Shown: positions 12,553-60,520, counted from the stretch's first letter. The stretch: 64,000 nucleotides of DNA from Thermoplasmata archaeon (GCA_049591535.1 JBAWFC010000042.1:437-64436); one strand, 5' to 3'. The notes: generated from the letters alone by a model not told the origin. Translations and numbers: made by a program.

Positions 12553-13710
12553 ATGGCAGGCGACGGCTGGGGAGCGGTGCGCCGGACCTGTCCTCCGGTA
12601 CGCACGATGCGTCGAAGTCGCCCTCCCTTCGCCGAAACGACCGGGCACCTCGAGGTCGACGGCGGTCGGATCTTCTACCGCGCGCTCGGTGGCCCCCGCC
12701 GGCCGACGGTCCTCGTCCTCCACGGGGGTCCGAGCGATCATCGATACCTGGCGATGCTCGCGGACCTCGTGCCGCGCGGATACCGCGTGGTGTGGTACGA
12801 CCAGCTCGGCTGCGGTCGCTCTTCGCGCCCGCGATCCTACCGGGAATACACGATGGAGACATTCGGGCGCCAGGCCGAGTCGGTCCGCCGCGCCCTCGGC
12901 CTCGGCCGACCCCACCTGTTCGGCCACAGTTGGGGCGGTGCGCTCGCCCTCGAAGCGGCGACGCTCTACCCCCGCAGTTTCCGGAGCCTCTCCGTATGCG
13001 GCGGGTTCGGGAGCGCTACCAGCTTCGGGAACGCCCTGCGCCGACACACCCATCGCTTGCCGCGGGCTCTTCGGGAGCCGATCGAACGGTACGAGCGCGA
13101 AGGGAACTACGTCTCCCCCGAATACCGGGCGGCGATCGCGGAGCGCCGTCGCGTGTACAGCACCGGGGTTCGGGTACTCCCGTACGAGTTCGCGGCCACC
13201 GCATCGGGGGTGAATCCGCGGCTCCTACGAGCCGTCTACGGACCGAACCGAGGGTTGCTCTCGCCGCCCGGGGGATTGCTCCGGGGCTGGGACCTTCGTC
13301 CCCGGCTCGCACGGATCCGTCTCCCGACCCTGATCATGTCCGGGGAGATCGGGGCCGGTCGGTACACCGCCCGGGACCTGCACCGCTGGCTGCCGAACTC
13401 CGAGCGGGTCACGTTCCCCGGCGCGGCACATCTCCCGTTCTACCAGTCCCGCGACCGGTTCCTCGAGACGATGCTCCGCTTCCTCGATGCGATTCCCTCG
13501 CCCGGCCCAACGCGGACGATCCGCCGAAGCGCTCCGGCCGGTGCGACGACCCGGCCCGACGGGCCGCGGCCGACTACTGCTTGCGCATCTTCTGGGCCCG
13601 CATGCGACGGCGCATCCGCTTCTTGCGCCACTTCCAGCGCATGTGGCCGCGCTTCTTCCAAACCCGCGAAGAACGTTTCATCCAGCCCGCGTCCGAACGG
13701 GCGCGGGTAG
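12553..13710 (+). CDS. pip: Proline iminopeptidase-type alpha/beta hydrolase (tricorn F1-like) with a low-complexity tail of about 70 aa
   Basis: It reads VLVLHGGPS...LGCGRS...FGHSWGG (nucleophile elbow)...GAAHLPF. The homology-like region ends near 13497. The frame has no stop codon until 13710. The start may be ATG 12607 instead. Confidence 0.75.
   Translation: MAGDGWGAVRRTCPPVRTMRRSRPPFAETTGHLEVDGGRIFYRALGGPRRPTVLVLHGGPSDHRYLAMLADLVPRGYRVVWYDQLGCGRSSRPRSYREYTMETFGRQAESVRRALGLGRPHLFGHSWGGALALEAATLYPRSFRSLSVCGGFGSATSFGNALRRHTHRLPRALREPIERYEREGNYVSPEYRAAIAERRRVYSTGVRVLPYEFAATASGVNPRLLRAVYGPNRGLLSPPGGLLRGWDLRPRLARIRLPTLIMSGEIGAGRYTARDLHRWLPNSERVTFPGAAHLPFYQSRDRFLETMLRFLDAIPSPGPTRTIRRSAPAGATTRPDGPRPTTACASSGPACDGASASCATSSACGRASSKPAKNVSSSPRPNGRG
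13574..13681 (-). CDS. rpl41e: Large-subunit ribosomal protein eL41 (L41e), 35 aa
   Basis: Found by hand; it is too short for the ORF track. It reads MKRSSRVWKKRGHMRWKWRKKRMRRRMRAQKMRKQ. The core MRxKWRKKRxRR matches eukaryotic and archaeal L41. A TATA-like TTATAAA lies about 38 nt upstream. Confidence 0.8.
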   Translation of the reverse strand: MKRSSRVWKKRGHMRWKWRKKRMRRRMRAQKMRKQ

Positions 13711-24273: not shown

Positions 24274-24686
24274 GTAGCTTTCGCTGGAGGGGTTCCTCTG
24301 GACGCGGTCCGAAGACCCAGCTCGCCCGGGAGCGGGCCGGGAACCTTTTCGGACCCGGTCTGCTCGGCGGCCCGCCGCGCGCGCGAACGTCGCAGGTCTC
24401 CGGGTCCGACGCGATCCCTACACTCCTGCGTTCCGCGAACGCATCACCGCGCGGGGCCACCGCTTCGAGTCCCGGCCAACAATCCGCGGGGACTCGCGCC
24501 GGTTATACGCCGTTTTTGCGGCCGCCTGACGTGCGAAGGACCGGCGATTGGCACCCTCCCCCAATGGAATTTTTTCGAGGGAAAACGCAGAGTTTTCGCC
24601 GTGGGCCATCGGATTCCGCAATACCGACGCGGCTCGCGACGAATATCTCAGCGACGATTATGTAGCGGGTGGTAATCAGCGGCACC

Positions 24687-27600
24687 ATGGCGCGTGTCCG
24701 GGTGCTCGCCTTGGTCGCCGTATTGATCGTCGTGGTGATGGTGGGTTCGTCTCTTGCAGCGTTGACGGCAGGATTGGGTGCGCCCGCGGGCGCGGCCGCT
24801 TCGCCGTTTTCGGTCAGCAGTTCCGCTCAATCCCAAGCGGTCGGTGCCACCTCCGGGAGCGTCGCAAATTCGGCGCAATCCGCGTCCACGACCCACTTCG
24901 CGACCGACGTAGCCCGAGCCGATCTGGTCAACCGGGCCCGTCAGGCCTTCATCGACAACAACGTCAGCTTGAACGACTTCTTCCCTCCCAATCTCAATGC
25001 CGCGCCGGGTCCAACGGGCGCTACCGACGGTCACATTGTTCCGCTCTACGACTACGCTGCAGCCCCCCTCGGCGTCTCGACGTTCGGGCTCGAGAACACC
25101 ACGGGGACGACCACGCCCTACATCCTGAACACCACGAGCCTACTGGGAACGTTCTCCACGAGCGACCCCGAGGGGCTGCAGGTGCTCTCGCCTTACTACG
25201 GAACGCTCCAGTCGTACGGAGACCAGCTCAACACCGTGCTCAACAACACCACGATCCTGGGCACCGGTGGGTACGACTTCTGGCTGCAGAATGTCATCAC
25301 CTACACATCGTCCACCAACACGCTCCGATTCGAGAACAACATCTGGAACTTCTCGAGCCCGAGCGGAATCTTCCCGTCGAACTCAATCCTTCACGGGTTG
25401 GGCCGGGTCGAATCGGAGGAGGTCTACGAGGAGAGCGGTCCGAGCATCACGATCGCCTATCCGTTCACCTTGGACCTCTACCTCAACACGACCGTGGGCA
25501 GCTACGACGGCTCCCCGTTCGTCAACGAGGCGTACTTCAACTACACCGTGATCAACGCAGCGGGTCAGGTCGTTTGTCCCACGACCGAACCGACCGGCGA
25601 GAGTTGCAGTAACGGCGCCGGTGGCCACGGCGGAATGTACGACAACGTCTACTTCAACTCCGCCACCAACGTTCCGTTCGGCTCCGCCGAGATCTCGGCC
25701 AACGGCGAGCAGTACACTCCGCTCGGCCTTCCCTCCGACATGGAGATGGACGTGGGCATCGGGCAGAGCGACGGCGCGAACGCGAACGTCGTCTACTCGA
25801 ACGCCACGGTCGGACTCTACACGCTGAACGCCACCACAGACACCTACCAGGCACCGCCGTCGGCCTACGACTTCGGCAGCGAGACCGGCGAGACCGGGGC
25901 CGGTGCCTCGGTATCTTGGGCCACCGTGAACGGGCAGCCTGTCGCCTACGAGCGGACCGGGCCGTCGCTCCTCACAGGGCTCTGGAACGTTACCGGGGGA
26001 ACGGACGGAGCGCCGTCGATCGGGACCGCCGCGGAGGGCGCCTTTGCCCTCAACTACGCGGGGGTCTCTCCGGGGAATGCCTTCCTCGCGATCGCGCAGG
26101 GCTCCGGCACCACGAACCAGGCGATGTTCCAGGTCGCACCGACGTTCGGATGGTTTACGGGCAAGGGCCAGTTGGGTCAGAACCTCTGGCTTCCGACCGG
26201 CAACTATACCGTGGAAGTGATGCTGAGCGGTTACAACCAACTGAACGAGAGCGTGTCCCTGACCGCCAACACGGCCCTCTCTGCCACATTGGTTCGAAGC
26301 GCGACCCCGACGGTGTATACACCGCTGTGGGCCTACTCTAACTCGGACCTCGCGAATCTCTCGACATCGGGCGCCGGCACATCGGGAAGTCCCTACGTGC
26401 TGCCCGGATTGCAGCCGGGTTCGTTGGCCCCCGTCTTCGCGATTCTGAACGACTATCTGTTCATCGTCTACTCGGGGATCTGGATCAACGCGACCACGGC
26501 GAATTTCCAGTTCAACCCCGCCCCGTCGCTCGAGATCACGGAGCCGACCTGGTGGTACTTCCAGACGGAGGGGCTCGCGGCCGCGTACGGCTCGACGTTG
26601 CTCTACAACCAGCTGCCGATGTACTTCTACCACACGTCGAATTTCGTTGTGGAGAACAGTGCCGGCATCGGACTATGGTCGTCGGATATCGAGGTCGGAC
26701 ACAACTACGCGGTGTACTGCAACCTCTGTTCGGATTCCCTCTGGGCCTCGAACACGTTCAACGTGTCGAGCGAGGGCATCGAGTTCCTGGGCTCGGGCAC
26801 TAGCCAGAACAACTACGTCTGGGGGAACACGTTCACGCCGTTCTCCGACCCGGCTGAGGGCGGCATGTCCGCCCCCTCGACCGGACTCGTGTTGTCCGAA
26901 GGCGGCGACCACATCTACAACAACGCGTTCTACACCAACCGGACCCTGACGTCGACGTCCACCACCCTCGTGAACGTCTTCGAGGCGGCCGGCGGCTACC
27001 AGCCGGCGTCGAACTCGGTCACCGTGAACGGTGTCGCCCTGACGGGCAGCATCCTCGGCGGACCGGTCCAGGGCGGGAACTACTACCGCGACTACGGTGC
27101 GCTGGCCAACCCGTACGGAGTGATTCCGTACGTCGGCCGACAGTCGAGTCCCACGGGCAGTGCGGGGATCGGCAGCGGCGGGGACTTCGCGCCGCTGACG
27201 CTTCTTCCCGGGAGCTGCAACCCGTGCCTCGAGACCGCCGGGTTGTACAAGGTGACGCTGACCGAGACCGGTGTCACGGCGAGCAAGACGTGGACGGCGA
27301 AAGTGATCGGCGTCCCGGTCTACGAACCGCTCCTATCGACGCTGTACACCTCGCCCGTCACCAACACGTCCACGACGACGCCGACGACGAGCCTTTCGTT
27401 CTGGCTACCGAACGGCACGTACGCGTTCACGGTCTCCACGACCGCGACGGGCATCGGGCCGGCGGGCAACGTCTGGTCGTTCTCGGTCAACGGGGCGGCG
27501 GTCAACCCCCCCACGATCGTGTTCGAGCCCACCTACGCCGTCACGTTCTCGGAGCACGGATTGCCGTTCGGTATCAACTGGCAGGTGACGGTCAACGGCG

Positions 27601-29324
27601 TGACGGGAACCGTGGCCGGGAACGGCGCCAACCAGAGCCTTTCGTTCTCGGAGGTCAGCGGTAGCTACGAGTACACGATCGCTCCGATCGCGGGATGGAC
27701 CCAGTCGACGCTACCCCCCAGCGGTTTCCTCACGGTCAGCGGGGCTCCGGTCGCAGAACCGAGAGTCCTCTACACCGAGGTGACCTATTCCGTGACGTTC
27801 TCCGAGAATGGGCTACCCGCCGGGCAGACGTGGGGCGTCACCCTCAACGGAGTGACCGGCTCCCTCACGACGGTCGCGGGGACTAACTCGATCGAGTTCA
27901 CTGGGGTGCCGGACGGGACCTACTCGTACTCGATCGCAGCGGTCTCCGGCTGGCACGAGAGCGCCGTGGCCGCGACAGGGATCGTGGTCGTGAACGGCGC
28001 GGCGGTGTCCGTCAGCATGACGTATACCGAAGTGACGTACTCGGCGACGTTCTCGGAGGAAGGCCTCCCCTCGGGACTGCCGTGGCAGGTCACGCTCAAC
28101 TCCGTCGAGAAGACGTTGACAACGGACGGAGGGACCGACAGCCTGACCTTCACCGGACTGCCCAACGGCACCTACTCCTACACGGTCGCCGACAACCCGG
28201 GCTACCACCAGAGCACGCTCCCGTACACCGGTAGCGTCTCGGTCGATGGGGCCGCGGTGTCGGAGCCGGCGCTCGTGTACGGGGTCACGACCTACTCGGT
28301 GACGTTCTCCGAGAGCGGGTTGCCGGTCGGCCTCACCTGGCAGGTGACCGTGAACGGAGTGCCGATGTCCACGGTGACCGACGGAGGGACCGACTCTCTG
28401 ACCTTCACGGGTCTCGCCAACGGTACCTACGCTTACTCGATCGCCGACAACGGTGGCTGGCACCAGACGACCCTCGCGTACGCAGGGACCGTCGGGGTCA
28501 GCGGCGCTCCGGTCGCAGAGCCGACGCTGGTCTACACGGCGGTGACCTACAAGGTGGCGTTCGTAGAGAGCGGCCTACCGACCGGGACCTCCTGGTCGGT
28601 CACGCTCGGTGCGCAGACGGTCTCGTCGACGACGACCAAGGTCGTCTTCCACCTCGTGAACGGGTCGTACACCTACTCGATCGGCCTCGTGGCCGGCTAC
28701 GAGCCCAAGACCGCGTCGGGGACCTTCGTCGTCGCCGCCACCCCGGTGAAGGTCTCGGTACCGTTCAAGGTCACGACCTACGTGATCTCGTTCAAGGAGT
28801 CGGGCCTTCCGTCCGGCACCTCCTGGAGCGTGACGCTCACGCCGAGTTCGGGTCCGCCGACCACGGTGACTTCGACCGTCGTGATGCTCCGGTTCCACGA
28901 GCCGAACGGGACCTACAACTACAGCGTGACGCCGATCTCGGGGTACCACATCAGCTCGGGGGCATACTCGGGCTCGGTGACGGTGAACGGGGCGGCGCCG
29001 GCGACGATCGTCGACCATTGGACGCTCGTGAAGTACGCCGTGTCATTCACGGAGACCGGGCTGCCCCACGGAACGAGCTGGCAGGTCGTGATCAACGGCC
29101 ATACCTACTCGACCACCGGCACGACCATCACGGTCAACCTGCCGAATGGGACCTACGCGTTCACGGTCTCGGCCGTCGGGTATACCGGGACCCCGAATCC
29201 GTCCAGCCCGTTGATCGTGAGCGGGGCGGCGGTTCCCGTGACGGTGAGCTTCGCGCCGGGGTCCGAACCGCGGCTCGTCGGGGCAACGATGCAGCTGCAG
29301 GCGGGAGTGAGCCGGGCCATCTAA
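24687..29324 (+). CDS. Large surface protein: signal anchor, thermopsin (peptidase A5)-like domain, parallel beta-helix region and 8-9 tandem ~85-aa repeats
   Basis: The region APLGVSTFGL...YGDQLNTVLNNT...YDFWLQNVITYTSSTNTLRFENNIWNFS aligns with S. acidocaldarius thermopsin (AGIASFGL...LQFNIVL...YWLQDV...LTFIDNVWNL). The middle region has PbH1-like NNYVWGNTF and IYNNAFY. The C terminus carries the repeats. It contains dozens of N-x-S/T sequons. Confidence 0.8.
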   Translation: MARVRVLALVAVLIVVVMVGSSLAALTAGLGAPAGAAASPFSVSSSAQSQAVGATSGSVANSAQSASTTHFATDVARADLVNRARQAFIDNNVSLNDFFPPNLNAAPGPTGATDGHIVPLYDYAAAPLGVSTFGLENTTGTTTPYILNTTSLLGTFSTSDPEGLQVLSPYYGTLQSYGDQLNTVLNNTTILGTGGYDFWLQNVITYTSSTNTLRFENNIWNFSSPSGIFPSNSILHGLGRVESEEVYEESGPSITIAYPFTLDLYLNTTVGSYDGSPFVNEAYFNYTVINAAGQVVCPTTEPTGESCSNGAGGHGGMYDNVYFNSATNVPFGSAEISANGEQYTPLGLPSDMEMDVGIGQSDGANANVVYSNATVGLYTLNATTDTYQAPPSAYDFGSETGETGAGASVSWATVNGQPVAYERTGPSLLTGLWNVTGGTDGAPSIGTAAEGAFALNYAGVSPGNAFLAIAQGSGTTNQAMFQVAPTFGWFTGKGQLGQNLWLPTGNYTVEVMLSGYNQLNESVSLTANTALSATLVRSATPTVYTPLWAYSNSDLANLSTSGAGTSGSPYVLPGLQPGSLAPVFAILNDYLFIVYSGIWINATTANFQFNPAPSLEITEPTWWYFQTEGLAAAYGSTLLYNQLPMYFYHTSNFVVENSAGIGLWSSDIEVGHNYAVYCNLCSDSLWASNTFNVSSEGIEFLGSGTSQNNYVWGNTFTPFSDPAEGGMSAPSTGLVLSEGGDHIYNNAFYTNRTLTSTSTTLVNVFEAAGGYQPASNSVTVNGVALTGSILGGPVQGGNYYRDYGALANPYGVIPYVGRQSSPTGSAGIGSGGDFAPLTLLPGSCNPCLETAGLYKVTLTETGVTASKTWTAKVIGVPVYEPLLSTLYTSPVTNTSTTTPTTSLSFWLPNGTYAFTVSTTATGIGPAGNVWSFSVNGAAVNPPTIVFEPTYAVTFSEHGLPFGINWQVTVNGVTGTVAGNGANQSLSFSEVSGSYEYTIAPIAGWTQSTLPPSGFLTVSGAPVAEPRVLYTEVTYSVTFSENGLPAGQTWGVTLNGVTGSLTTVAGTNSIEFTGVPDGTYSYSIAAVSGWHESAVAATGIVVVNGAAVSVSMTYTEVTYSATFSEEGLPSGLPWQVTLNSVEKTLTTDGGTDSLTFTGLPNGTYSYTVADNPGYHQSTLPYTGSVSVDGAAVSEPALVYGVTTYSVTFSESGLPVGLTWQVTVNGVPMSTVTDGGTDSLTFTGLANGTYAYSIADNGGWHQTTLAYAGTVGVSGAPVAEPTLVYTAVTYKVAFVESGLPTGTSWSVTLGAQTVSSTTTKVVFHLVNGSYTYSIGLVAGYEPKTASGTFVVAATPVKVSVPFKVTTYVISFKESGLPSGTSWSVTLTPSSGPPTTVTSTVVMLRFHEPNGTYNYSVTPISGYHISSGAYSGSVTVNGAAPATIVDHWTLVKYAVSFTETGLPHGTSWQVVINGHTYSTTGTTITVNLPNGTYAFTVSAVGYTGTPNPSSPLIVSGAAVPVTVSFAPGSEPRLVGATMQLQAGVSRAI
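27246..29270 (+). repeat. Tandem coding repeats, period about 231-288 nt (8 clear units plus 1 degenerate unit) inside the thermopsin-like gene
   Basis: Units start at 27246 (degenerate), 27534, 27786, 28038, 28293, 28548, 28779 and 29034. The consensus is Y-x-V-T/S-F-x-E-x-G-L-P-x-G-x-x-W-x-V-T-x-N-G...N-G-T-Y-x-Y-x-I/V...G-A-x-V. Confidence 0.85.
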
Positions 29325-53836: not shown

Positions 53837-54033
53837 GTCGTTCGCCGAGCGGAGTCGAGTACTTGGAGTTTTGCGGCGAGCGACCGGTACCTTCTCCGCC
53901 GGGGGTCCGGACACCCCCCCGGGCCCGGGCGCGTACGGGAACGAAATCGCGCGAGGCGGCCGTCCCGGAACCGCGGGACGTCCGGTTCCCCGTCCTCTAA
54001 AGAACCCGAGCCGAATGGGGTCGGGCGGTTCGC

Positions 54034-54831
54034 ATGGAGTTCTCGTGGCACGAAGAAGGGCCGCCCGAAACCAACTTCGGCGCCGGTTCGGTCGTGGTTT
54101 CCGCGTTCCCGAGCGCCGGACTCGCGACGATCGTCGCCGCACACTACATCGTGCGCTCGCTCCGGTTGCCCCGGATCGGCCGATTCGAGTCGCCGGATCT
54201 TGCTCCGGTCGCGGTGGTCCAAGCCGGACAGGTGAACCCGACGGTCCGTGTCTACGGTCGTCCCGACCTCGCGCTCGTCCTATCGGAGTTTCCGCCCAGT
54301 CCGGGCCAGGCGACCGCGATCGCGCGAACGATCCTCGATAACGCCGAGCGGCGCAAGGCGCGGGCCGTGATCTGCCTCGAGGGAGTCGTCCCGCATCCGG
54401 AGGTCGAGGGCGCCGATGGAACTCCGGACCTCGCGCCGTCGGACGAACAGGTCTGGGTCGCTTACTCCCGAAGGGATCCGGCGTTCGTCCGGGGGTTCGA
54501 GGCGGCGAAGGCGCGGACCCTCGAGGAAGGCGTCATCGGCGGCGTGTCGGGGGCGCTGCTGGTCCAGGGACTCGGGCGGAGCGTTCCGGTCGCGGTGCTG
54601 CTCGTGAGCGCCCGGGTCGCCGAGGGTCTTCCCGACCACCGCGCCGGAGCGGCGCTGATCGAGACGCTCGAACGGGTGCTCCCCGAACTCAAGATCGACA
54701 CCGGACCTCTCCGGGCCCAGGCCGAGCAGATCGAGAAGGCGCTGCGGGCCGTCATGAAGTCGGGACACGGCGCTCCGGGGTCCCCCGCGCCGGAACCCGA
54801 CCGGCCGGCGTCCCCCGAGATGTACCGCTGA
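54034..54831 (+). CDS. PAC2-family protein (proteasome-assembly-chaperone-like)
   Basis: It reads VVVSAFPSAGLATIVAAHYIVRSLRL...GVIGGVSGALLVQG. The layout is typical of archaeal PAC2/Pba proteins, but this is recognised from memory only. Confidence 0.55.
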   Translation: MEFSWHEEGPPETNFGAGSVVVSAFPSAGLATIVAAHYIVRSLRLPRIGRFESPDLAPVAVVQAGQVNPTVRVYGRPDLALVLSEFPPSPGQATAIARTILDNAERRKARAVICLEGVVPHPEVEGADGTPDLAPSDEQVWVAYSRRDPAFVRGFEAAKARTLEEGVIGGVSGALLVQGLGRSVPVAVLLVSARVAEGLPDHRAGAALIETLERVLPELKIDTGPLRAQAEQIEKALRAVMKSGHGAPGSPAPEPDRPASPEMYR

Positions 54832-54857
54832 TCGGGCCGGAGTCGCTCGGGGCGGGG

Positions 54858-55025
54858 TTACGGGAACGTGTCGGTGTACGTCAGCAGGTAGAAGGCGCCC
54901 AGGACCATCGCACCGATCTCGACCAGGATGGCGATGGGGTTCGAGGCGAACCAGACGACCGTCGCTCCGATGAGGATCGACGGGACGATCAGGAGGAAGA
55001 TGACCGTGAACCAGCGTCCGTCCAT
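54858..55025 (-). CDS. Small membrane protein (55 aa, 2 TM helices)
   Basis: It reads MDGRWFTVIFLLIVPSILIGATVVWFASNPIAILVEIGAMVLGAFYLLTYTDTFP. A TATA-like CCTTAAG lies 26-32 nt upstream of ATG 55025. Confidence 0.5.
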   Translation of the reverse strand: MDGRWFTVIFLLIVPSILIGATVVWFASNPIAILVEIGAMVLGAFYLLTYTDTFP

Positions 55026-55191
55026 CCTCAAGTACCGAGCCGGAGCCGTTCTTAAGGCTGATAGCCCGCCGCCCGTGGGTCCCCCGGAGCACTCGGCTCG
55101 CGCGCCCGCCTCCCCGACGGCGGCTTCGGCGCCCAGTCTCACCGACCCGCGGACGGGGGGGCTTGACCCCGGGCGCTGCTCGCTTCCCGGT

Positions 55192-56115
55192 TCAGAGGAT
55201 GGTGGGAGGCCGGGCTTCCGCCTCGACCTCGAACGTCAGCTCCACCTCGGCCTCCCGGCCGCCCACGGCGGGAAGGAGCGGGGGGAGCTCGGAAGGCGCC
55301 TCGGGGGCCGGTGGGACCACCCCGAGCGCGGCTATCTCGGCCGCGGGGATCCGGTTCATCGGTCCCTCTTCGACCGAACGGGTGATCTGCAAGGCCTCGA
55401 TCATCGCTTCGACCGGGGCGACGAACGAGGTTTCGATGTGGTGCTCGATGACGCTCGCCCAGTGGTGGGTGACGGCGGTGAACGGCGTTCGGCCCTGGGT
55501 CCGGACGAGGCTCTCGTTGTCGAGCGTCTGGATCGTGGCGTGACCCCGGGCGTGCCGCTCGACATACGAGTCGACGAACTCGAGCCGACCGATCGTTCGA
55601 TCGGCGACGGCCCGTCGCTCCCCTTCGCAGAGGAACGGTTTGATCACGAAGGCGCTCACGACCTCACAGTTGCGGCAGGCCGCGGCCAGGATGTGCGGGA
55701 AGGCTCCGCTCCCCGCGCCTCCGCCGAGGCTTCCCACGAGAATGACGAAAGTTGCCCCGCGGAAGATGCGGTCGAGAGCGGGTTCCGCCGCGCGAGCGAG
55801 CGTTCCGCCGACGACGGAGGAGCCGCCGGTGTCGGTTTCGGCGCCGGTGTCGGGCCCGAGGTAGACCCGACGATCGAACTCGTCGTACCCCTGGACCTTC
55901 GGGTCGCAATTGATCGCGACGGTCTCCAAGTGCCGAATGTGCTGACGCGCGATCTCACTTCCGACCCGAATCGCTCCGCCGCCGACAGCGACCAGAACGA
56001 AGCGAACGTCCTGACCGAGGCGAAGGTGGTCGGTCCACCCGTCCTCGATCGGTTCGCCGTATCCCAGCGCGGAGTTTCGGTCACCCGTCGTTCGCTCGGC
56101 CTCGTAGACTCCCAC
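55192..56115 (-). CDS. FtsZ/tubulin-superfamily GTPase-domain protein lacking a recognisable C-terminal (T7-loop) domain
   Basis: It aligns by eye with the FtsZ N-terminal domain: VAVGGGAIRVGS (T1), TVAINCD, VGSLGGGAGSGAFPHI (GGGTGTG signature), IKPFLCEGERR and TLDNESL. After about residue 215 there is no NxDFAD-type T7 loop, only an Ala/Pro/Glu-rich tail. It starts at GTG. Confidence 0.7.
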   Translation of the reverse strand: MGVYEAERTTGDRNSALGYGEPIEDGWTDHLRLGQDVRFVLVAVGGGAIRVGSEIARQHIRHLETVAINCDPKVQGYDEFDRRVYLGPDTGAETDTGGSSVVGGTLARAAEPALDRIFRGATFVILVGSLGGGAGSGAFPHILAAACRNCEVVSAFVIKPFLCEGERRAVADRTIGRLEFVDSYVERHARGHATIQTLDNESLVRTQGRTPFTAVTHHWASVIEHHIETSFVAPVEAMIEALQITRSVEEGPMNRIPAAEIAALGVVPPAPEAPSELPPLLPAVGGREAEVELTFEVEAEARPPTIL

Positions 56116-56154
56116 AACCTACCCCTGTACTGCCTTCCACGATCGTTCGTCCGA

Positions 56155-56655
56155 CTACCGCCCGACGACCCCCTTTCGCTCCAGGTCCTTGGCACTCTCC
56201 TGGAGGGCTCCCGCTTGCGTCCGGCTTTCGACCGCTTCGCGCACCGTTGCGCGAGCTCGGGCCACGAGCTCGTGGACCTTCATCTCGGACTCGCCGCGGC
56301 GGACGATCTCGGCGAGGAGGTCCCTCACCGGTCGGCCGTTCGCGATGTGCCGGGAGTAGGCCTCGAAGGCGGCGTACTCGTCCGGGCGTAGGCGCACGGG
56401 GACTTCGATGAAGCCCTCGGCATCCGCAGGGGGCGTTGGCGCGGTCGACAGAGCGCGGGAACGCAGGAATGCGTGCAGCGCTGCCCGCATCAGCTCCGAA
56501 CGGGTCTCGAACTCGCCGTTGGCCACGAACGAGTCGACCAGCTGGAGCTCCTTGCGGTTGCACCGTAGGGCGATGCGCGCATCCTCCGTTCCGTCCCGGC
56601 GGTCGTCCGGCTCCTGCGAGGGAGCGGATTTCCGCGACGAACCTTTGTCGAACAC
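56155..56655 (-). CDS. Tandem ribbon-helix-helix (CopG/Arc-like) DNA-binding protein
   Basis: RHH-1 is ARIALRCNRKELQLVDSFVANGEFETRSELMRAALHAFL and RHH-2 is IEVPVRLRPDEYAAFEAYSRHIANGRPVRDLLAEIVRRG. The preferred start is GTG 56655, which has TTTAAGTA 28 nt upstream; the track ORF extends to 56742 through AT-rich DNA. Confidence 0.6.
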   Translation of the reverse strand: MFDKGSSRKSAPSQEPDDRRDGTEDARIALRCNRKELQLVDSFVANGEFETRSELMRAALHAFLRSRALSTAPTPPADAEGFIEVPVRLRPDEYAAFEAYSRHIANGRPVRDLLAEIVRRGESEMKVHELVARARATVREAVESRTQAGALQESAKDLERKGVVGR

Positions 56656-56967
56656 AGCTACGCACAGGCATGTTAATTCCTGATACTTAAACAAACGCTC
56701 GATTGATTGACGTGAACGCGTGGCGTCGCGGGAACACATCATTTTCTGACGTGTCGAACAACATCTAGACCTCGTCGAACGCCTCGTATCCGCCCGGAGG
56801 GGTCAGTATAACACCGCCCCGGATCCGCGTCGATTCCGGGCCGATCGGGCATCGCGAAGGATTCGCGGTGCACGCACCCCAAACCCATCCTCTGGACGCC
56901 CCGCCCGCAGGCCCGAGTGCCGTTCTTCACGTCGCACGCTCTCGGGGCGAACCGGAGCTATGTTCGG

Positions 56968-56980
56968 TATAGATTCTATA
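56968..56980. promoter_or_regulatory. Palindromic TATA-like element TATAGA-T-TCTATA
   Basis: It has perfect 6-bp inverted arms in an AT-rich island of a GC-rich genome. It is followed at 56989-56998 by ATGCGCATTG, and no convincing ORF lies downstream on either side. Confidence 0.35.
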
Positions 56981-57345
56981 TACTAGTGATGCGCATTGGT
57001 ACTCCGTCAGCCGATGGGACGAGCTCGGGAGCCATGGACACGACGCGCGGCGTCGTTGTGGAAGCGGGTCTTCGGTCCCCCGGGGTCGCCTACCGCATCG
57101 GTTCGTCCGTCCCACGTGGAACCGCTGAGCGACCCGGTCGCTAGCTTCTGGGCCCGAAACCCGTAATCCTCGGTGGCACGGCCCCGCGGAGTTCCTACCG
57201 GACCGCTCCGACCCCTGGCCCTACGGTCCCCACTCTCGGTTCGCCACCGCTCCGTGGACTCTCGCCCTCCGAGGGCCGTCCTGGGTCTCGGGGGCGGGAA
57301 GATCTCCCTCGGACTCCTTCGCGTTCGAGAAGAGTCGGATCGGTC

Positions 57346-58134
57346 TCACAAGCCAGCCGTAGGAGGAGTTCCCTGACCCCCCGAAGGACCGGTCGTCGCT
57401 CCGGCCGAGGGGGGCGGAGTTGCGACAGGGGTGGTCCCAGGACTGGTTGGCGGGGGCGTGGCCGACGGGGGTCCGTTTACCGAGGGCGCCGCGGGGCGTC
57501 CCCTCGCCACCGCCACGTGCGCGTCGAGATAAGCCGCGAGGAGCAGGAAGTAGGAGATGAACAGGTAGGATGCAAGGTAGTCCACGGGTCCGATCAGGGA
57601 TTCCACCGAGAACGATCGCGCCGAGATGTCCCCGAGGATGGTGGGGAGATCTGCCGCCAACGCCTGGGCGACGAAGGCGGAGACGACCAGCGCCCAGAGA
57701 GAGGAGGCGATGAGGACGCCCTTACTGGGGCGCGTCACCAAGTGAAACACGAGCTGCGCGTACGTGACGAACGTCCCGAGGACGAACGAGCCGACGGCGG
57801 CGCCGAACAGCGCCTCGGCCCACAGGGGAGATCCTACGGAAGGGTACACGGTCAGGAGGACGAGCTCCGCCCCCGCGACGACGCCCGCGAGAAGGCTCAG
57901 GCCGAAGATCTGATTCGCCCGACGCACGCGCGCCCGGTGCAACTCATCCCATTCGTGCCTCCCGATCAGGAGGAACAATAGCCCCAGCAAGGTGACGACC
58001 GAAGGGAGCAGAAAGAGGAGGCTCGTTCCCGGTAGGAACGAGCCGGCGGTGAGGAGCGAGTACGCTTCGGCGCCTCCCTCTACCGCAAACCCAATCGATA
58101 GGATGGTAAGGCTGATCCGCAGATTGGTCGTCAT
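57346..58134 (-). CDS. Polytopic membrane protein with a Pro/Thr-rich C-terminal tail
   Basis: The start was taken at MTTNLRISLTILSIGFAV (ATG 58134) inside track ORF 57346..58422. It has about 6-7 hydrophobic helices and a PPSATPPPTSPGTTPVATPPPS tail. Confidence 0.55.
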   Translation of the reverse strand: MTTNLRISLTILSIGFAVEGGAEAYSLLTAGSFLPGTSLLFLLPSVVTLLGLLFLLIGRHEWDELHRARVRRANQIFGLSLLAGVVAGAELVLLTVYPSVGSPLWAEALFGAAVGSFVLGTFVTYAQLVFHLVTRPSKGVLIASSLWALVVSAFVAQALAADLPTILGDISARSFSVESLIGPVDYLASYLFISYFLLLAAYLDAHVAVARGRPAAPSVNGPPSATPPPTSPGTTPVATPPPSAGATTGPSGGQGTPPTAGL

Positions 58135-58374
58135 GCACCGCGCCGAGACCCTCCGGTACGTTGGGGTGGATTTGACACCTCCCCGTGCGCCGGACGGAGC
58201 GAGGCGGCAGGTTCGGTGCCGGGGGACCTGGGGGCGGAAGCGATTCGCCCGTGGGCCGTCCGGAACCCGGTGACGATCTCCGACCGCGGTCGACGGCCGG
58301 AGCCGCGGACCGTCCCGGCTTCGAGGGAGAGCGGTGGGGCCGAGCGGACCCGCCGCATGTGCCGATGTGTCATT

Positions 58375-58423
58375 ATGCGCATTGATGCGTATTGCGTCAA
58401 TTGACGTGCTATACGTCGTCAAT
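58375..58423. promoter_or_regulatory. Iteron-like motif cluster: ATGCGCATTG, ATGCGTATTG, the palindrome CGTCAATTGACG and a further CGTCAAT
   Basis: Read directly from the sequence: 58375-84 ATGCGCATTG, 58385-94 ATGCGTATTG, 58395-406 the 12-bp perfect palindrome, and 58417-23 CGTCAAT. The TATA-like TTTTATATAC at 58446-55 follows, upstream of the pilin gene. Confidence 0.45.
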
Positions 58424-58512
58424 CGCCGTTTCCGTAGACATCAACTTTTATATACAACATGCCGGCCATACCCTCACTCGCGGGTCAAACGACCCATCGG
58501 AGGAAAAGCGGA

Positions 58513-59097
58513 ATGAACGTCTTTGGACAGAGCGCGAGAAGTTGGAGAAAGGCGCGGAAGCGCGCGGTATCGCCGATCATCGCGACGATTTTGCTCGTCG
58601 CGATCACGGTCGTGCTGGCCGCAGTGCTGTACGTGCTCATCTCGGGATTGACGCACGGACCCGGTTCGGCCCCCCTCGGGACGAACTTCGGGTGGGGTCA
58701 GCCGGACAACGCCACGGGTACGGCCATCATCGGATGCACGGCGACCACGGCCCACTTCTGCTACAGCATTGAGATCGCGTCGGCGGGCGGAGGAATCACC
58801 ACGCCTTCCGTGGATCTCTCTCTGCGGAACGCCGCGGGCGGAACCGTGGGTTGGCCCTCTGGAGGCGTCACGATCTCGCTGGTCAGCCCGTCGAGCATTA
58901 ACGCGATCGCAACGTACTCTACCACGGCGAACACCTGGGCCCCGGTCGGGTCCTTCTCGGGCGCGTTCGCGAGCGGCCAGTCCATCGTGGTCTACACCAC
59001 GACCGGAACCAACAGCCAGGGCATGTTCGGCGACTCGATCGTAGCCATCGGCGGAAACGGCTACTCGGGCACGGTGGCCTCGGCGTCGTTCTCGTAG
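58513..59097 (+). CDS. Archaeal type IV pilin-like protein (class III signal peptide, Pilin_N/DUF1628-type N terminus)
   Basis: It reads MNVFGQSARSWRKARKRAVSPIIATILLVAITVVLAAVLYVLI, i.e. a charged n-region, a small residue, then a hydrophobic helix of about 22 aa. GGAGG lies 10 nt upstream of ATG 58513. The C-terminal domain is Ser/Thr/Gly-rich. Confidence 0.75.
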   Translation: MNVFGQSARSWRKARKRAVSPIIATILLVAITVVLAAVLYVLISGLTHGPGSAPLGTNFGWGQPDNATGTAIIGCTATTAHFCYSIEIASAGGGITTPSVDLSLRNAAGGTVGWPSGGVTISLVSPSSINAIATYSTTANTWAPVGSFSGAFASGQSIVVYTTTGTNSQGMFGDSIVAIGGNGYSGTVASASFS

Positions 59098-59117
59098 ACT
59101 CCGGACGCTCGGCAAGA

Positions 59118-59168
59118 CTCCGTCCCCTCGGAAGGGGGGCGGAGCGAACCACTTCCGACCCTCTTTTT
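59118..59168 (+). terminator. Imperfect GC hairpin plus a T5 run after the first pilin gene
   Basis: CTCCGTCCCC-TCGGAA-GGGGGGCGGAG (59118-59144) is followed by CTTTTTC (59162-59168). Oligo-T tracts are the usual archaeal termination signal. Confidence 0.35.
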
Positions 59169-59341
59169 CACTCGAACCTCCGGCGGCGGACCCGCCGGCA
59201 CGGGGCTCGGCTCGCGGACCTATAGAATGGGGCGACCCGGGGGCGAAAACCTCCTCACGATCCGTGGAATTTCGTCGGAACGTCTAAATACCCCGCGCCC
59301 GCCTATTCGAGAATACTCGTCTGGGAGGTACGGCCAAACGC

Positions 59342-60520
59342 ATGGTTCTTGGGCACCCCGTCGGCGGCCGTCGAGTCCCGCGAGGAGTTGCCCGATCCCG
59401 CCGCGGCCGCCGGTGGCGATCCCGACGTGGGGTGGCGGAAGTCGTTGCAACAATCATTCTCCTTGCGTTGACCGTCACCCTGTTCTCGGCGATCTTCGCG
59501 TTCGTTACTTCATTCCCCTCTCCGCCGTCCCAGTCTTCCAACCAGTTCCAAGCGACGTTGCAGTACGCGACGAACTCCTCAAGCCACGCCTCGCCGAAGC
59601 CGACCGCGATCAGCGGAGTGAGCATCCTGCATCTCGCCGGGCCCACCGTTTCCGTGGGCGCGCGGGTCTACCTCAAGTCCGCGAGCAATCCGAACGGGCC
59701 GGTCTTCCAGAGCGCGTACGTCACGACCTCGAACTGGAACCTGGGTCAGAGCTACAGCGTCGCGTTCCCCACGGGCCAGTACGACCCGCTGGGCGACAAC
59801 ATCACCGTCTACATCATCTCCCAGTCGACCCTCTTGTTCAGCGCGATCCTGCCCGGGCAGTCGATCGCGGTGCCGCCGACCTTCCTCTCGACCGCCGTCA
59901 CGCCGGGGAACCCCGACGTCGGGGCCGTCTTCAACGTCTCGACGGTGATCGCGGGAACCCCGAAGACCTACGGGACCTACATCACCCTCTCCGGGATTCC
60001 GGGCCTCACAGCGACGCCCGAGAAGATGACCTACAGCGCCACCACGGGCACGTTCTACTTCGTGGTGTCGGTCGCCTACGGGGCGACCACCGAGAACGGG
60101 ACCTACTACGCGTTCATCAACGCTTCGGGGACCAGCGGCGGGACCGCGAGTACCGGGGTCCCGATCACGTTCGTGACGCCGACGACCTCGACCGGCACCC
60201 TTGCCAGCGGCGGACCGACGGGTCTCCTGACCTCGACCCAGACGATCGTGACCTACACACCGAGCGCGACGGCCCAGTTCCGCATCTCCTGGACTCTCTC
60301 CTGCAAGACCGGGACCACGACCCCGACGCTGAAGGTCACCTGGACCGACCCGACGCTGGGGGCCCAATCCTACACGCTCTACGCGACTTCGATGGCCACC
60401 GGCGCCACAACGAACGGAGTGTACACGCTGGTGTCGACCGCGACCGTGATCACTATCACGGCCAGCGAGAACACTGGCTCCAACCGGATCTACGCGACCG
60501 TCTCCGTCAGCAACCCGTAG
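59342..60520 (+). CDS. Archaeal type IV pilin-like protein, large (392 aa)
   Basis: It has an Arg-rich n-region of about 30 aa, then RRG-VAEVVATIILLALTVTLFSAIFAFV. The globular part is Thr/Ser-rich with N-x-S/T sequons. TCTAAATAC lies about 55 nt and GGGAGGT 13 nt upstream of the ATG. Confidence 0.7.
   Translation: MVLGHPVGGRRVPRGVARSRRGRRWRSRRGVAEVVATIILLALTVTLFSAIFAFVTSFPSPPSQSSNQFQATLQYATNSSSHASPKPTAISGVSILHLAGPTVSVGARVYLKSASNPNGPVFQSAYVTTSNWNLGQSYSVAFPTGQYDPLGDNITVYIISQSTLLFSAILPGQSIAVPPTFLSTAVTPGNPDVGAVFNVSTVIAGTPKTYGTYITLSGIPGLTATPEKMTYSATTGTFYFVVSVAYGATTENGTYYAFINASGTSGGTASTGVPITFVTPTTSTGTLASGGPTGLLTSTQTIVTYTPSATAQFRISWTLSCKTGTTTPTLKVTWTDPTLGAQSYTLYATSMATGATTNGVYTLVSTATVITITASENTGSNRIYATVSVSNP

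What the first reader, a model, noticed from the sequence alone, without database searches (positions are those of the whole stretch)
55192..56655. Tandem-RHH DNA-binding protein followed by a half-size FtsZ/tubulin GTPase: a candidate partition-like or cytomotive two-gene module
**Seen in sequence.** Two co-directional genes are separated by 39 nt.
- The upstream gene encodes two ribbon-helix-helix units in one chain, so a single polypeptide could mimic an RHH dimer.
- The downstream gene keeps every N-terminal FtsZ nucleotide-binding element: T1 GGG, AINCD, the GGGAGSG signature, the KPFxxEGxxR segment and the DNExL segment.
- It ends in an Ala/Pro/Glu-rich tail. It has no recognisable C-terminal domain and no T7 loop, which is the element that completes the GTPase site of the neighbouring subunit in FtsZ or tubulin filaments.

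**Established knowledge.** Bacterial type III partition systems pair a small DNA-binding adaptor (TubR) with a tubulin-like GTPase (TubZ) and an iteron centromere. Divergent FtsZ-like families have also been described in archaea.

**Inference.** This could be an adaptor plus truncated-tubulin module acting on the nearby repeat-bearing AT-rich islands. An RHH adaptor paired with a T7-less FtsZ core is not a combination I recognise as characterised.
Basis: partly seen in the sequence, partly recalled or inferred. Interest (0 to 1): 0.72.

Follow-up and report, generated by a model that had tools for sequence, protein, structure and literature searches.

The report
Short FtsZ in a cdrS-ftsZ2-like operon
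A group of soil Thermoplasmata archaea carries a cell-division-type operon in which the tubulin-like FtsZ gene has been reduced to its GTP-binding half, and it always sits between a CdrS-like DNA-binding regulator gene and a tiny membrane-protein gene; this is a new variant of a known archaeal division locus, not a plasmid-style DNA-partition system.

Summary
Two minus-strand genes, 39 nt apart, encode a 166-aa RHH protein (56155-56655) and a 307-aa FtsZ-like protein (55192-56115). The FtsZ-like protein keeps motifs T1-T6 and helix H7. It has no C-terminal domain and no NxDxxD T7 loop, and it ends in a disordered Pro-rich tail with a conserved terminal EVELTFEV peptide.

The partition interpretation is not supported:
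- The locus is chromosomal and lies among housekeeping genes.
- There are no iterons.
- The RHH protein's best family match is CdrS, the regulator co-transcribed with ftsZ2 in Euryarchaeota.
- A related Thermoplasmatota genome (Ca. Natronoplasma) has a clear tandem CdrS directly upstream of a canonical FtsZ.

New points:
- The module has three genes. A 55-aa two-TM protein (54858-55025) is always adjacent, even at 22-38% identity and in a different neighbourhood.
- Three conserved GTTCGAC boxes flank the RHH promoter and are a candidate operator.
- The second "RHH unit" is unproven.

Most likely this is a lineage-specific cdrS-ftsZ2 derivative whose one-faced FtsZ cannot form a normal filament. 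It would then act as a membrane-linked end-binder or modulator, or as a GTP switch. I could not test whether canonical FtsZ co-occurs. I found no description of the family.

The parts
56155..56655 (-). CdrS-like RHH protein gene (166 aa, GTG start). Res 24-68 (56452-56586) form the RHH unit. Res 81-125 (56281-56415) are a possible degenerate second unit. Res 126-166 (56158-56280) are a long conserved C-terminal helix ending in KDLERKGVVGR.
   Evidence: ORF and sequence. More than 360 homologues, mostly 166-181 aa, start with M/V-F-D. NCBIfam CdrS is the best hit in all 4 diverse members tested. AF2 model and Foldseek RHH hits.
55192..56115 (-). Short FtsZ gene (307 aa). The GTP-binding N-domain is res 36-211 (55483-56010). 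Helix H7 is res 212-249 (55369-55482). The disordered Pro/Ala/Glu-rich linker is res 250-289. The conserved terminal peptide EVELTFEV is res 290-297 (55225-55248).
   Evidence: Pfam and NCBIfam hits. AF2 model. Foldseek against PDB. Family alignments. Alignment with canonical FtsZ.
56116..56154 (-). 39-nt spacer between the two genes, with a purine-rich Shine-Dalgarno-like AGGGGTAGG (56118-56126) just upstream of the GTG. This is consistent with co-transcription (inference).
   Evidence: Sequence. The spacer is 37-39 nt in L003, L013 and L010, and the genes overlap in L008.
54858..55025 (-). 55-aa mini-protein gene with two predicted transmembrane helices. Conserved features are MDGR at the N-terminus, an F..NP loop and a G..YL.(T/S)Y C-terminus. 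It is always immediately downstream of the short FtsZ gene.
   Evidence: Alignments. Present in every locus examined. 121 clusters, all 37-79 aa (119 of the 120 listed are 54-79 aa), all Thermoplasmata where named, with adjacent locus tags. No Pfam hit.
56683..56692 (-). TATA-like box GTTTAAGTAT, 29-36 nt upstream of the GTG start. It implies a leaderless or very short-leader transcript (inference).
   Evidence: Invariant in five aligned loci. Found at -35/-36 in six loci.
56774..56780 (-). GTTCGAC box 1, at -125 from the start codon. Candidate operator for the RHH protein.
   Evidence: Conserved in position in window, L001, L002, L003, L013 and L010 while the flanking DNA is not conserved.
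56753..56759 (-). GTTCGAC box 2 (TGTTCGACACGTCAGAA), at -104 and 21 nt from box 1.
   Evidence: The exact 9-mer TGTTCGACA occurs only twice in the 64 kb window, both times here.
56647..56653 (-). GTTCGAC box 3. It overlaps codons 1-3 (GTG TTC GAC) at the predicted transcription start.
   Evidence: Related boxes occur in distant loci: TGTCCGACAAAA twice in L008 and GTGTCGGACA at the start codon of the Natronoplasma cdrS-like gene.
56803..56812 (-). Conserved 10-mer GTTATACTGA, upstream of box 1. It may be a second TATA-like element. Its role is unknown.
   Evidence: Invariant in five aligned loci. Absent from L013 and L010.
55048..55056 (-). TATA-like box CTTAAGAAC, 23-31 nt upstream of the mini-protein ATG. 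It suggests the mini gene has its own promoter (inference).
   Evidence: A similar (C/T)TTAAG box sits at the same distance in L001, L002, L003, L010 and L008.

Best explanation
This is a lineage-specific derivative of the archaeal cdrS-ftsZ2 cell-division operon. It occurs in a clade of high-GC soil and peat Thermoplasmata, probably Ca. Lutacidiplasmatales and relatives (the taxon is an inference).

Shown:
- An enlarged CdrS-family RHH protein is encoded 39 nt upstream of an FtsZ homologue.
- That homologue keeps the whole nucleotide-binding face (T1-T6) and H7.
- It has lost the C-terminal domain and the T7 loop.
- It carries a disordered linker and a conserved acidic terminal peptide.
- A 55-aa two-TM protein gene is an obligate neighbour.

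Inferred:
1. The RHH protein binds the three conserved GTTCGAC boxes around its own promoter and sets the expression of the operon, as CdrS and CdrL do for cdrS-ftsZ2.
2. The short FtsZ binds GTP. Having only the 'top' (nucleotide) face of a tubulin-fold subunit, it cannot supply a T7 loop to a neighbour and cannot propagate a canonical head-to-tail filament.
3. It therefore most likely docks through its GTP face onto the T7 face of a canonical FtsZ subunit or filament end. It would act as an end-binder, capper or modulator. Its C-terminal peptide would tether the complex to the membrane through the mini-protein, in the way FtsZ tails bind SepF, FtsA or ZipA.

A non-polymerising, membrane-tethered GTP switch is the fallback version of this model.
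For: Gene architecture and motifs.

Structure: the model gives an N-domain plus H7 and then disorder. Foldseek top hits are all FtsZ, with about 195 of about 305 residues aligned.

Distinct, constrained family:
- Full-length relatives of 302-321 aa align over res 21-303 down to 34% identity.
- There is then a sharp drop to canonical FtsZ, which matches only res about 35-185.
- E292, F295 and E296 in the terminal peptide are invariant in 43 sequences.

Three-gene synteny is kept at 31%, 38% and 22% identity in a different neighbourhood, and in the housekeeping context in 6 other loci. The mini-protein family has the same taxonomic range and adjacent locus tags.

CdrS link:
- NF058555 is the best NCBIfam hit for all 4 diverse RHH proteins tested.
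- In Ca. Natronoplasma a tandem CdrS (77 bits; unit 2 alone 40 bits) sits 58 nt upstream of a canonical Tubulin+FtsZ_C FtsZ.
- Our unit 1 matches its unit 1 at 19.7 bits, against 9.6 for the best of 2000 shuffles.
- Literature: cdrS-ftsZ2 are co-transcribed and conserved (PMC7439475, PMC8406309), and ftsZ2 is frequently found with parD (PMC8178401).

Operator: GTTCGAC sits at -125, -104 and +2 in six loci, with a TATA box at -36. Related boxes occur in L008 and Natronoplasma.
Against: - I could not determine whether these genomes encode any canonical FtsZ1, FtsZ2 or SepF. If they do not, the capper or end-binder model has no substrate.
- FtsZ2 ancestry rests on synteny only. The best non-family hits are mostly bacterial FtsZ. 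Two other archaeal FtsZ in the hit list have no RHH gene upstream.
- The CdrS match is far below the model's cut-off (24 bits against 100), and the protein is nearly three times the size of CdrS.
- The terminal peptide does not resemble the archaeal GID motif that binds SepF (PMC8178401).
- The mini gene seems to have its own promoter and is 75-167 nt away, so it is not in the operon.
- In three divergent members the GGGxGxG box is degenerate (GGR.., GGE..), so GTP binding may not be universal.
- An invariant P234/E236 lies where T7 would begin, so some trans-acting role cannot be excluded.
- No experiment or multimer model was available.
Confidence: 0.55

Rival explanations
1. GTP-sensing regulatory pair. 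The short FtsZ does not touch FtsZ filaments at all. It is a monomeric or dimeric GTP-binding protein that binds the long C-terminal helix of the RHH protein, or the mini-protein, and modulates transcription or a membrane process according to nucleotide state.
For: All nucleotide-binding loops are conserved while both polymer-specific elements are gone. The RHH protein has a strongly conserved C-terminal helix of about 40 residues with no DNA-binding role assigned. The two genes are tightly coupled (39 nt apart, or overlapping in L008).
Against: I know of no precedent for a tubulin-fold protein acting as a transcription co-factor. The FtsZ-like linker plus terminal peptide looks like a tethering device rather than a regulator interface. 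No interaction data exist.
Confidence: 0.15
2. A new kind of self-assembling filament. The short FtsZ polymerises through a non-canonical interface, for example the extended H7 with invariant P234/E236 or the tail. The filament would be anchored by the mini-protein and act as the clade's replacement for FtsZ2.
For: There is strong purifying selection over the whole length, including H7 and the terminal peptide. An invariant Glu lies at the position where T7 begins. FtsZl1 proteins, which also lack canonical filament elements, were proposed to possibly use a novel assembly mode (PMC2875224).
Against: The entire bottom face (T7, H8 and the C-terminal domain) is missing. In tubulin-family filaments GTPase activation requires that face (established knowledge). 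I could not run a homo-oligomer prediction.
Confidence: 0.12
3. Toxin-antitoxin-like division brake. The RHH protein is a ParD-type antitoxin (N-terminal RHH plus a C-terminal toxin-binding helix) that autoregulates the operon and neutralises the short FtsZ. When freed, the short FtsZ poisons FtsZ polymerisation.
For: The gene order is antitoxin-like first and effector second, with operator-like repeats at the promoter. Foldseek's best hits are ParD and PrpA antitoxins. TIGR02606 ParD is the second NCBIfam hit. An N-domain-only FtsZ would be expected to be dominant-negative (own knowledge of engineered FtsZ fragments and bottom-face mutants).
Against: The module is single-copy, vertically inherited and fixed at a housekeeping locus across a whole clade. 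There are no mobile-element neighbours and no PADLOC hit. Conservation is as high as for core genes. Canonical, non-toxic ftsZ2 genes have the same RHH partner (PMC7439475).
Confidence: 0.08
4. One reading: a type III-like (TubR/TubZ) partition or cytomotive module, in which the RHH adaptor binds nearby repeats and recruits the tubulin-like GTPase to move DNA.
For: A DNA-binding protein gene lies directly upstream of a tubulin-family GTPase gene. Three short direct repeats lie upstream.
Against: The context is chromosomal and housekeeping. There are only three 7-bp boxes at promoter positions and no iteron array. The 58.37-58.43 kb site is only a 2.5-copy 10-nt repeat. The GTPase lacks the parts needed for a filament. 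Foldseek's top 50 hits are all FtsZ and none is TubZ. The RHH protein is CdrS-like, not a TubR-type winged HTH.
Confidence: 0.03
5. A decaying remnant of ftsZ2 with no function.
For: The gene has lost a whole domain and the catalytic loop.
Against: More than 500 clusters have a near-constant length. Conservation extends to 34% identity with intact motifs and a conserved terminal peptide. Both neighbours are conserved.
Confidence: 0.02

Closest known systems
cdrS-ftsZ2 operon of Euryarchaeota (Halobacterium salinarum, Haloferax volcanii; PMC7439475, PMC8406309)
   Same: An RHH (CopG/ParD-like) transcription-factor gene lies immediately upstream of, and co-directional with, an FtsZ-family gene on the chromosome. 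CdrS is the best family match for the RHH protein. Conserved sites lie upstream of the promoter, in the range reported for CdrS motifs (41-110 nt upstream of the TSS).
   Different: CdrS is about 60 aa, whereas this protein is 166 aa with an extra region of about 100 residues. FtsZ2 is a full two-domain FtsZ with a T7 loop, whereas this protein has only the N-domain plus H7. A 55-aa membrane-protein gene is added. The CdrS model score is far below its cut-off (24 bits against 100).
Ca. Natronoplasma (Thermoplasmatota) tandem-CdrS + canonical FtsZ locus (L011)
   Same: Same phylum. An RHH gene lies 58 nt upstream of an ftsZ gene. The RHH protein is longer than CdrS, and a GT(C/T)(C/G)GAC-type box overlaps its start codon. 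NDK lies upstream, as in the distant short-FtsZ locus L008.
   Different: There, both RHH units are unambiguous and the FtsZ is complete (Tubulin+FtsZ_C, TIGR00065 327 bits). There is no mini-TM gene downstream.
Type III plasmid/phage partition, TubZ-TubR-tubC
   Same: A DNA-binding protein gene sits next to a tubulin-superfamily GTPase gene.
   Different: TubZ has a complete two-domain fold and forms treadmilling filaments. TubR is a winged HTH. tubC is an iteron array. The system is plasmid- or phage-borne (own knowledge). None of these holds here.
FtsZl1 / Tubulin_2 family (Makarova & Koonin 2010, PMC2875224)
   Same: A divergent FtsZ-like GTPase without the canonical C-terminal domain and with doubtful filament-forming ability.
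   Different: FtsZl1 lacks T6-H7 and carries a coiled coil and a helical C-terminal domain. This protein keeps T6 and H7, passes PF00091 and fails PF13809 (12.8 bits against 27).
Engineered FtsZ N-terminal-domain fragments and bottom-face 'capper' mutants; natural cappers SulA and MciZ (own knowledge; PMC8936486 and PMC11938149 discuss filament polarity and capping)
   Same: A subunit with an intact nucleotide face but no functional T7 face is expected to add to one filament end and block further growth.
   Different: Those are laboratory constructs or unrelated small inhibitors. Here the one-faced subunit is a conserved natural gene with its own linker, terminal peptide and membrane-protein neighbour.
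ParD-type RHH antitoxins
   Same: An N-terminal RHH is followed by a helical C-terminal extension. Foldseek's top hits are of this type.
   Different: There is no ParE-like toxin, no mobility, and the locus is fixed and vertically inherited.

Membership tests
Canonical FtsZ (TIGR00065 / FtsZ1-FtsZ2) | N-terminal tubulin/FtsZ GTPase domain with loops T1-T6 | tested here: met
   PF00091 scores 43 bits against a cut-off of 33, E 7.9e-11. G45, G46, N69, G131-G137, P160, F161, E164, R167 and N200 are shared with canonical FtsZ.
Canonical FtsZ (TIGR00065 / FtsZ1-FtsZ2) | C-terminal (FtsZ_C, PF12327) domain | tested here: not met
   No PF12327 hit. The AF2 model is disordered after res 249. Foldseek aligns only about 195 of about 305 target residues.
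Canonical FtsZ (TIGR00065 / FtsZ1-FtsZ2) | T7 synergy loop (NxDxxD) after H7 | tested here: not met
   There is no counterpart in the alignment with four canonical FtsZ. The motif is also absent from all family members.
Canonical FtsZ (TIGR00065 / FtsZ1-FtsZ2) | Full-length model score above the curated cut-off | tested here: not met
   TIGR00065 scores 59.2 bits against a cut-off of 295.2.
Canonical FtsZ (TIGR00065 / FtsZ1-FtsZ2) | Disordered C-terminal linker plus conserved terminal peptide (archaeal GID motif binding SepF) | tested here: inconclusive
   A linker and a conserved terminal peptide are present, but the motif is EVELTFEV, not GID (PMC8178401).
CdrS (NF058555) | Ribbon-helix-helix DNA-binding fold | tested here: met
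   For unit 1: RHH_1 scores 18 bits, and Foldseek finds ParD, NikR and Arc RHH domains with prob 0.99 and rmsd 1.0 A.
CdrS (NF058555) | Model score above the curated cut-off; small protein of about 60 aa | tested here: not met
   23.8 bits against a cut-off of 100. The protein is 166 aa.
CdrS (NF058555) | Encoded directly upstream of, and co-oriented with, an ftsZ2-type gene | tested here: met
   39-nt spacer, conserved in all loci examined. The downstream gene is, however, a truncated FtsZ.
CdrS (NF058555) | Regulates cell-division genes by binding a specific DNA motif | not testable with these tools
   Only conserved candidate operator boxes (GTTCGAC, three copies) were found.
Tandem (single-chain) RHH | Two RHH units in one polypeptide | tested here: inconclusive
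   Unit 2 has no family hit, no significant similarity to unit 1 and none to Natronoplasma unit 2. Only the helix-loop-helix secondary structure fits.
Type III partition (TubZRC) | Plasmid or phage location with an iteron centromere | tested here: not met
   The context is chromosomal and housekeeping. No iteron arrays were found.
Type III partition (TubZRC) | TubZ-type two-domain GTPase and a winged-HTH TubR | tested here: not met
   Foldseek's top 50 hits are all FtsZ. The partner is an RHH protein.
FtsZl1 (Tubulin_2, PF13809) | Match to PF13809; coiled coil and helical C-terminal domain; T6-H7 absent | tested here: not met
   PF13809 scores 12.8 bits against a cut-off of 27. T6 (LDNE) and H7 are present.
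CetZ / tubulin | Closest sequence or structure match to CetZ or tubulin | tested here: not met
   All 49 PDB sequence hits and the top 50 Foldseek hits are FtsZ.
Type II toxin-antitoxin / defence system | Match to a known toxin or defence model; mobile, patchy distribution | tested here: not met
   No PADLOC hit for any of the three proteins. The locus is fixed across the clade.

The most novel reading that the evidence does not exclude
A whole order-level clade of Thermoplasmata has replaced the constriction paralogue FtsZ2 by a natural one-faced FtsZ: the GTP face only, plus a linker and a terminal peptide. Together with a dedicated 55-aa membrane protein, it would act as a GTP-dependent, membrane-anchored end-cap or nucleator of FtsZ1 filaments. 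If no canonical FtsZ is present, it would instead assemble through an entirely new interface. Either way it would be the first natural single-domain tubulin-superfamily cytoskeletal component.
Probability: 0.3. Interest if true: 0.78.

Novelty: new variant of a known kind. Interest (0 to 1): 0.6.

Why it matters
Archaeal FtsZ-based division is still poorly understood, including what FtsZ2 does and how rings are anchored and regulated.

A conserved natural FtsZ with only the nucleotide face would be a ready-made probe of filament polarity and end-capping. So far these have been studied with engineered mutants and with unrelated inhibitors such as SulA and MciZ. Its obligate 55-aa membrane neighbour would also be a new candidate membrane tether.

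The locus also extends the cdrS-ftsZ2 regulatory paradigm into Thermoplasmatota, with a clear candidate operator that can be tested by EMSA.

If the clade has no canonical FtsZ, the finding would instead mark a lineage that has dismantled the Z-ring while keeping a GTP-binding remnant under strong selection.

Tried and rejected
- Iterons or a centromere. Direct, inverted and tandem repeat scans of 56100-57400 and 54000-60000 found only short two-copy chance matches.
- ncRNA in the 690-nt upstream gap. Rfam at E up to 1 gave only a sub-threshold ncS037 match (30.7 bits against 112). There is no tRNA nearby.
- Internal duplication in the RHH protein. hhalign of the two halves, a Smith-Waterman shuffle test, profile-versus-Natronoplasma-unit tests and single-unit Pfam/NCBIfam scans all failed to support a second RHH unit.
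- Second FtsZ in the window. tblastn with 124 canonical FtsZ found none. The only other hit (12868-13485) comes from a hydrolase part of one query.
- Canonical FtsZ in the same genomes. The single genome-contig scan returned only two close loci. Cluster look-ups of the best canonical hits gave no clade-specific FtsZ. The Lutacidiplasmatales paper and its supplements do not mention FtsZ, and neither do two other Thermoplasmatota papers.
- FtsZ1 versus FtsZ2 assignment by the context of archaeal hits. P0297 and P0320 have no RHH gene upstream, even among small uncalled ORFs.
- Defence or TA models. PADLOC gave nothing.
- Literature search for an N-domain-only archaeal FtsZ. Nothing was found.
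Full report
**1. What is there**

The finding's coordinates match two minus-strand genes exactly.
- 56155-56655 encodes a 166-aa protein from a GTG start. A longer 195-aa ORF exists, but the homologues begin at M/V-F-D.
- 55192-56115 encodes a 307-aa protein.
- The two are separated by 39 nt.

Third-position GC (0.79 and 0.83) marks these as the real frames in this 69% GC sequence. The exact protein is recorded in NCBI as a hypothetical protein of a 'Thermoplasmata archaeon' MAG.

The window is plainly chromosomal. It carries Topo VI, a Nuo complex I operon, thermopsin, a KatG-like peroxidase, an aquaporin, SPFH/NfeD, primase, RIO1, FEN1 and PAC2. The GC content, a relative's contig of about 2.2 Mb (longest contig listed for P0149), the thermopsin gene and aerobic respiration genes fit the description of Ca. 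Lutacidiplasmatales in PMC9287336. This assignment is an inference and was not tested.

**2. The FtsZ-like protein**

- Pfam PF00091 matches res 40-175 (E 7.9e-11).
- TIGR00065 matches only the first half of its profile, with 59 bits against a cut-off of 295.
- PDB sequence hits are all FtsZ and cover only res about 37-185.

An AlphaFold2 model built on 43 homologues folds res 39-249 with high confidence as S1-S6 plus a long H7 helix (212-249). It leaves res 250-307 disordered. Foldseek aligns about 195-200 columns to roughly 305-residue FtsZ cores (E 7.5e-11). Every one of the top 50 hits is FtsZ; none is TubZ, CetZ or tubulin.

In an alignment with four canonical FtsZ, the (L/M)INxDxxD T7 segment and everything after it have no counterpart. 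The nucleotide-contacting glycines, N69, P160/F161/E164/R167 and N200 are shared.

The truncation is a family trait.
- More than 100 listed relatives are 284-316 aa.
- A filter-free search of 1.84 billion representatives finds a compact family: about 26 representatives below E 1e-15. Its full-length members (302-321 aa) align over res 21-303.
- Scores then drop sharply to canonical FtsZ, which matches only the N-domain.

Across this family the tail ends in a conserved peptide, E-V-E-L-T-F-E-V. E292, F295 and E296 are invariant in 43 sequences. So the layout mimics FtsZ's 'linker plus C-terminal peptide', but the motif is not the archaeal GID motif that binds SepF (PMC8178401).

Two caveats apply. 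Three divergent members have a degenerate G-box. An invariant P234/E236 lies where T7 would begin.

**3. The RHH protein**

Unit 1 (res about 24-68) is a real RHH.
- RHH_1 scores 18 bits, just under the cut-off.
- NCBIfam CdrS is the best hit for all four diverse family members tested (E 3e-5).
- Foldseek's best matches are ParD, NikR and Arc RHH domains (prob 0.99, rmsd 1.0 A).

The claimed second unit (res about 81-125) has RHH-like helix-loop-helix secondary structure and an 'ANG' turn like unit 1 (read from the sequence). It has no statistical support.
- No family hit.
- No similarity to unit 1.
- No similarity to the second unit of a true tandem CdrS.
- The AF2 monomer does not form a ribbon.

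A long, strongly conserved C-terminal helix (res about 126-160) is unexplained.

**4. Context and conservation**

In six loci from related metagenomes and MAGs the order is RHH, short FtsZ, 55-aa ORF, then PAC2 on the opposite strand, then FEN1.

In the most distant members (short FtsZ 38%, RHH 31%, small ORF 22% identity) the neighbourhood is different. NDK, Sua5 and MetAP lie upstream and RNA polymerase genes downstream. The three genes nevertheless stay together.

The 55-aa protein has two predicted TM helices and conserved MDGR, F..NP and YL.TY motifs. Its family has 121 clusters, all 37-79 aa, all Thermoplasmata where named. Locus tags are adjacent to the other two genes. It appears to have its own TATA-like box. 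The unit is therefore a three-gene module.

**5. Cis elements**

The 690-nt upstream gap is mostly unconserved, but it contains sharply conserved islands.
- A TATA-like GTTTAAGTAT lies at -36, which implies a leaderless or near-leaderless mRNA.
- Three GTTCGAC boxes lie at -125, -104 and +2. The last overlaps codons 1-3.
- The spacing between boxes is 21 nt and 106 nt.
- The positions are identical in six loci.

The exact 9-mer TGTTCGACA occurs only twice in 64 kb, both times here. The distant L008 locus has TGTCCGACAAAA twice, between its TATA box and the ATG. The Natronoplasma cdrS-like gene has GTGTCGGACA at its start codon.

These are good operator candidates for the RHH protein. They are not iterons: no arrays were found.

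**6. Link to the known cdrS-ftsZ2 operon**

In haloarchaea the RHH regulator CdrS is co-transcribed with ftsZ2 and controls division, and the locus is widely conserved in Euryarchaeota (PMC7439475; PMC8406309). PMC8178401 notes that ftsZ2 is frequently found with parD.

The best named archaeal canonical FtsZ in my full-library search is from Ca. Natronoplasma (Thermoplasmatota). Its locus reads L7Ae, S28e, L24e, NDK, a 106-aa RHH protein, then FtsZ (Tubulin+FtsZ_C). That RHH protein is an unambiguous tandem CdrS: 77 bits with two matched stretches, and unit 2 alone scores 40 bits. Our unit 1 matches its unit 1 well above shuffles.

The simplest reading is that the present pair descends from a cdrS-ftsZ2 operon. 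The FtsZ gene lost its C-terminal half, and the regulator's second half diverged.

This ancestry rests on synteny. I could not label FtsZ1 and FtsZ2 references for a tree. Two other archaeal FtsZ hits have no RHH gene upstream.

**7. How it most likely works**

Shown: the architecture, the conservation and the candidate operators.

Inferred:
- The RHH protein autoregulates the operon through the GTTCGAC boxes.
- The short FtsZ binds GTP but has only the nucleotide ('top') face of a tubulin-fold subunit. It cannot insert a T7 loop into a neighbour or extend a canonical filament.
- By analogy with engineered N-domain fragments and bottom-face mutants (own knowledge), it would add to the T7-exposing end of a canonical FtsZ filament and stop or modulate growth.
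- Its terminal peptide would be held at the membrane by the mini-protein.

I give about 0.55 to the overall 'cdrS-ftsZ2-derived division module with a one-faced FtsZ' reading. I give about 0.3 to the specific capper or anchor mechanism.

The rivals and my probabilities are:
- GTP-sensing partner of the regulator: 0.15.
- A filament with a new interface: 0.12.
- A TA-like division brake: 0.08.
- A dead remnant: 0.02.

**8. Main gap**

I could not read whole genomes of this clade, so I do not know whether canonical FtsZ1, FtsZ2 or SepF co-occur. This decides between the branches above.

**9. Novelty**

RHH plus ftsZ is a known pairing. A conserved natural FtsZ reduced to the N-domain plus H7, with its own tail peptide and an obligate mini membrane protein, was not found in the searchable literature. 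It is distinct from FtsZl1/Tubulin_2.

I rate it a new variant of a known kind, with interest about 0.6.

Noticed in passing
window 54858-55025 (-): A conserved 55-aa two-TM mini-protein gene lies directly downstream of the short FtsZ. It is restricted to the same Thermoplasmata clade, has adjacent locus tags in NCBI MAGs, and has no Pfam family. I treat it as a third module component.
   Followed up: yes
window 56803-56812 (-): An invariant 10-mer, GTTATACTGA, lies about 30 nt upstream of the first GTTCGAC box in window, L001, L002, L003 and L005. It is absent from L013 and L010. It could be a second TATA-like promoter element. Its role is unknown.
   Followed up: partly
L011 5622-7011 (Ca. 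Natronoplasma sp., GCA_048620615.1): A 106-aa protein made of two clear CdrS-like RHH units in tandem sits 58 nt upstream of a canonical 336-aa FtsZ, after L7Ae-S28e-L24e-NDK. An inverted repeat GACGTATA...TATACGTC lies upstream and GTGTCGGACA overlaps its start codon. Single-chain double-RHH CdrS variants may be a Thermoplasmatota feature.
   Followed up: partly
window 55369-55482 (res 212-249 of the short FtsZ): H7 is predicted as one unusually long helix of 38 residues. Invariant P234 and E236 lie at the position where canonical FtsZ begins its T7 loop. The guanine-contacting Asp of canonical H7 is replaced by Ala and preceded by an invariant His-Trp.
   Followed up: no
window 56656-57345: There is an unusually long (690 nt), lower-GC intergenic region upstream of the RHH gene. 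Apart from the promoter-proximal 170 nt it is not conserved in related loci, and the upstream neighbour differs between loci (a 358-aa ORF with no Pfam hit here, read as a multi-TM membrane protein by eye only; an epimerase or pilin gene elsewhere). Rfam found nothing there.
   Followed up: partly
window 58459-59097 and 59342-60520 (+): Two adjacent genes have archaeal type IV pilin-like N-termini (Pilin_N in the related loci). They are Thr/Ser-rich, probably surface or adhesion filament subunits.
   Followed up: no
window 24669-29324 (+): A 1551-aa secreted-type protein has a thermopsin acid-protease domain and a PEGA domain. This fits an acidophilic lifestyle like that of Lutacidiplasmatales.
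   Followed up: no
window 58259-58402 (+): A weak Rfam match to Burkholderia sRNA ncS037 (30.7 bits against a gathering score of 112, E 0.033). It is almost certainly chance.
   Followed up: no
window 55094-55146: A 28-nt unit is repeated 1.9 times (81% match) in the GC-rich gap between the short FtsZ stop and the mini-protein promoter. The gap length varies from 75 to 167 nt among loci, and the repeat is not conserved.
   Followed up: partly
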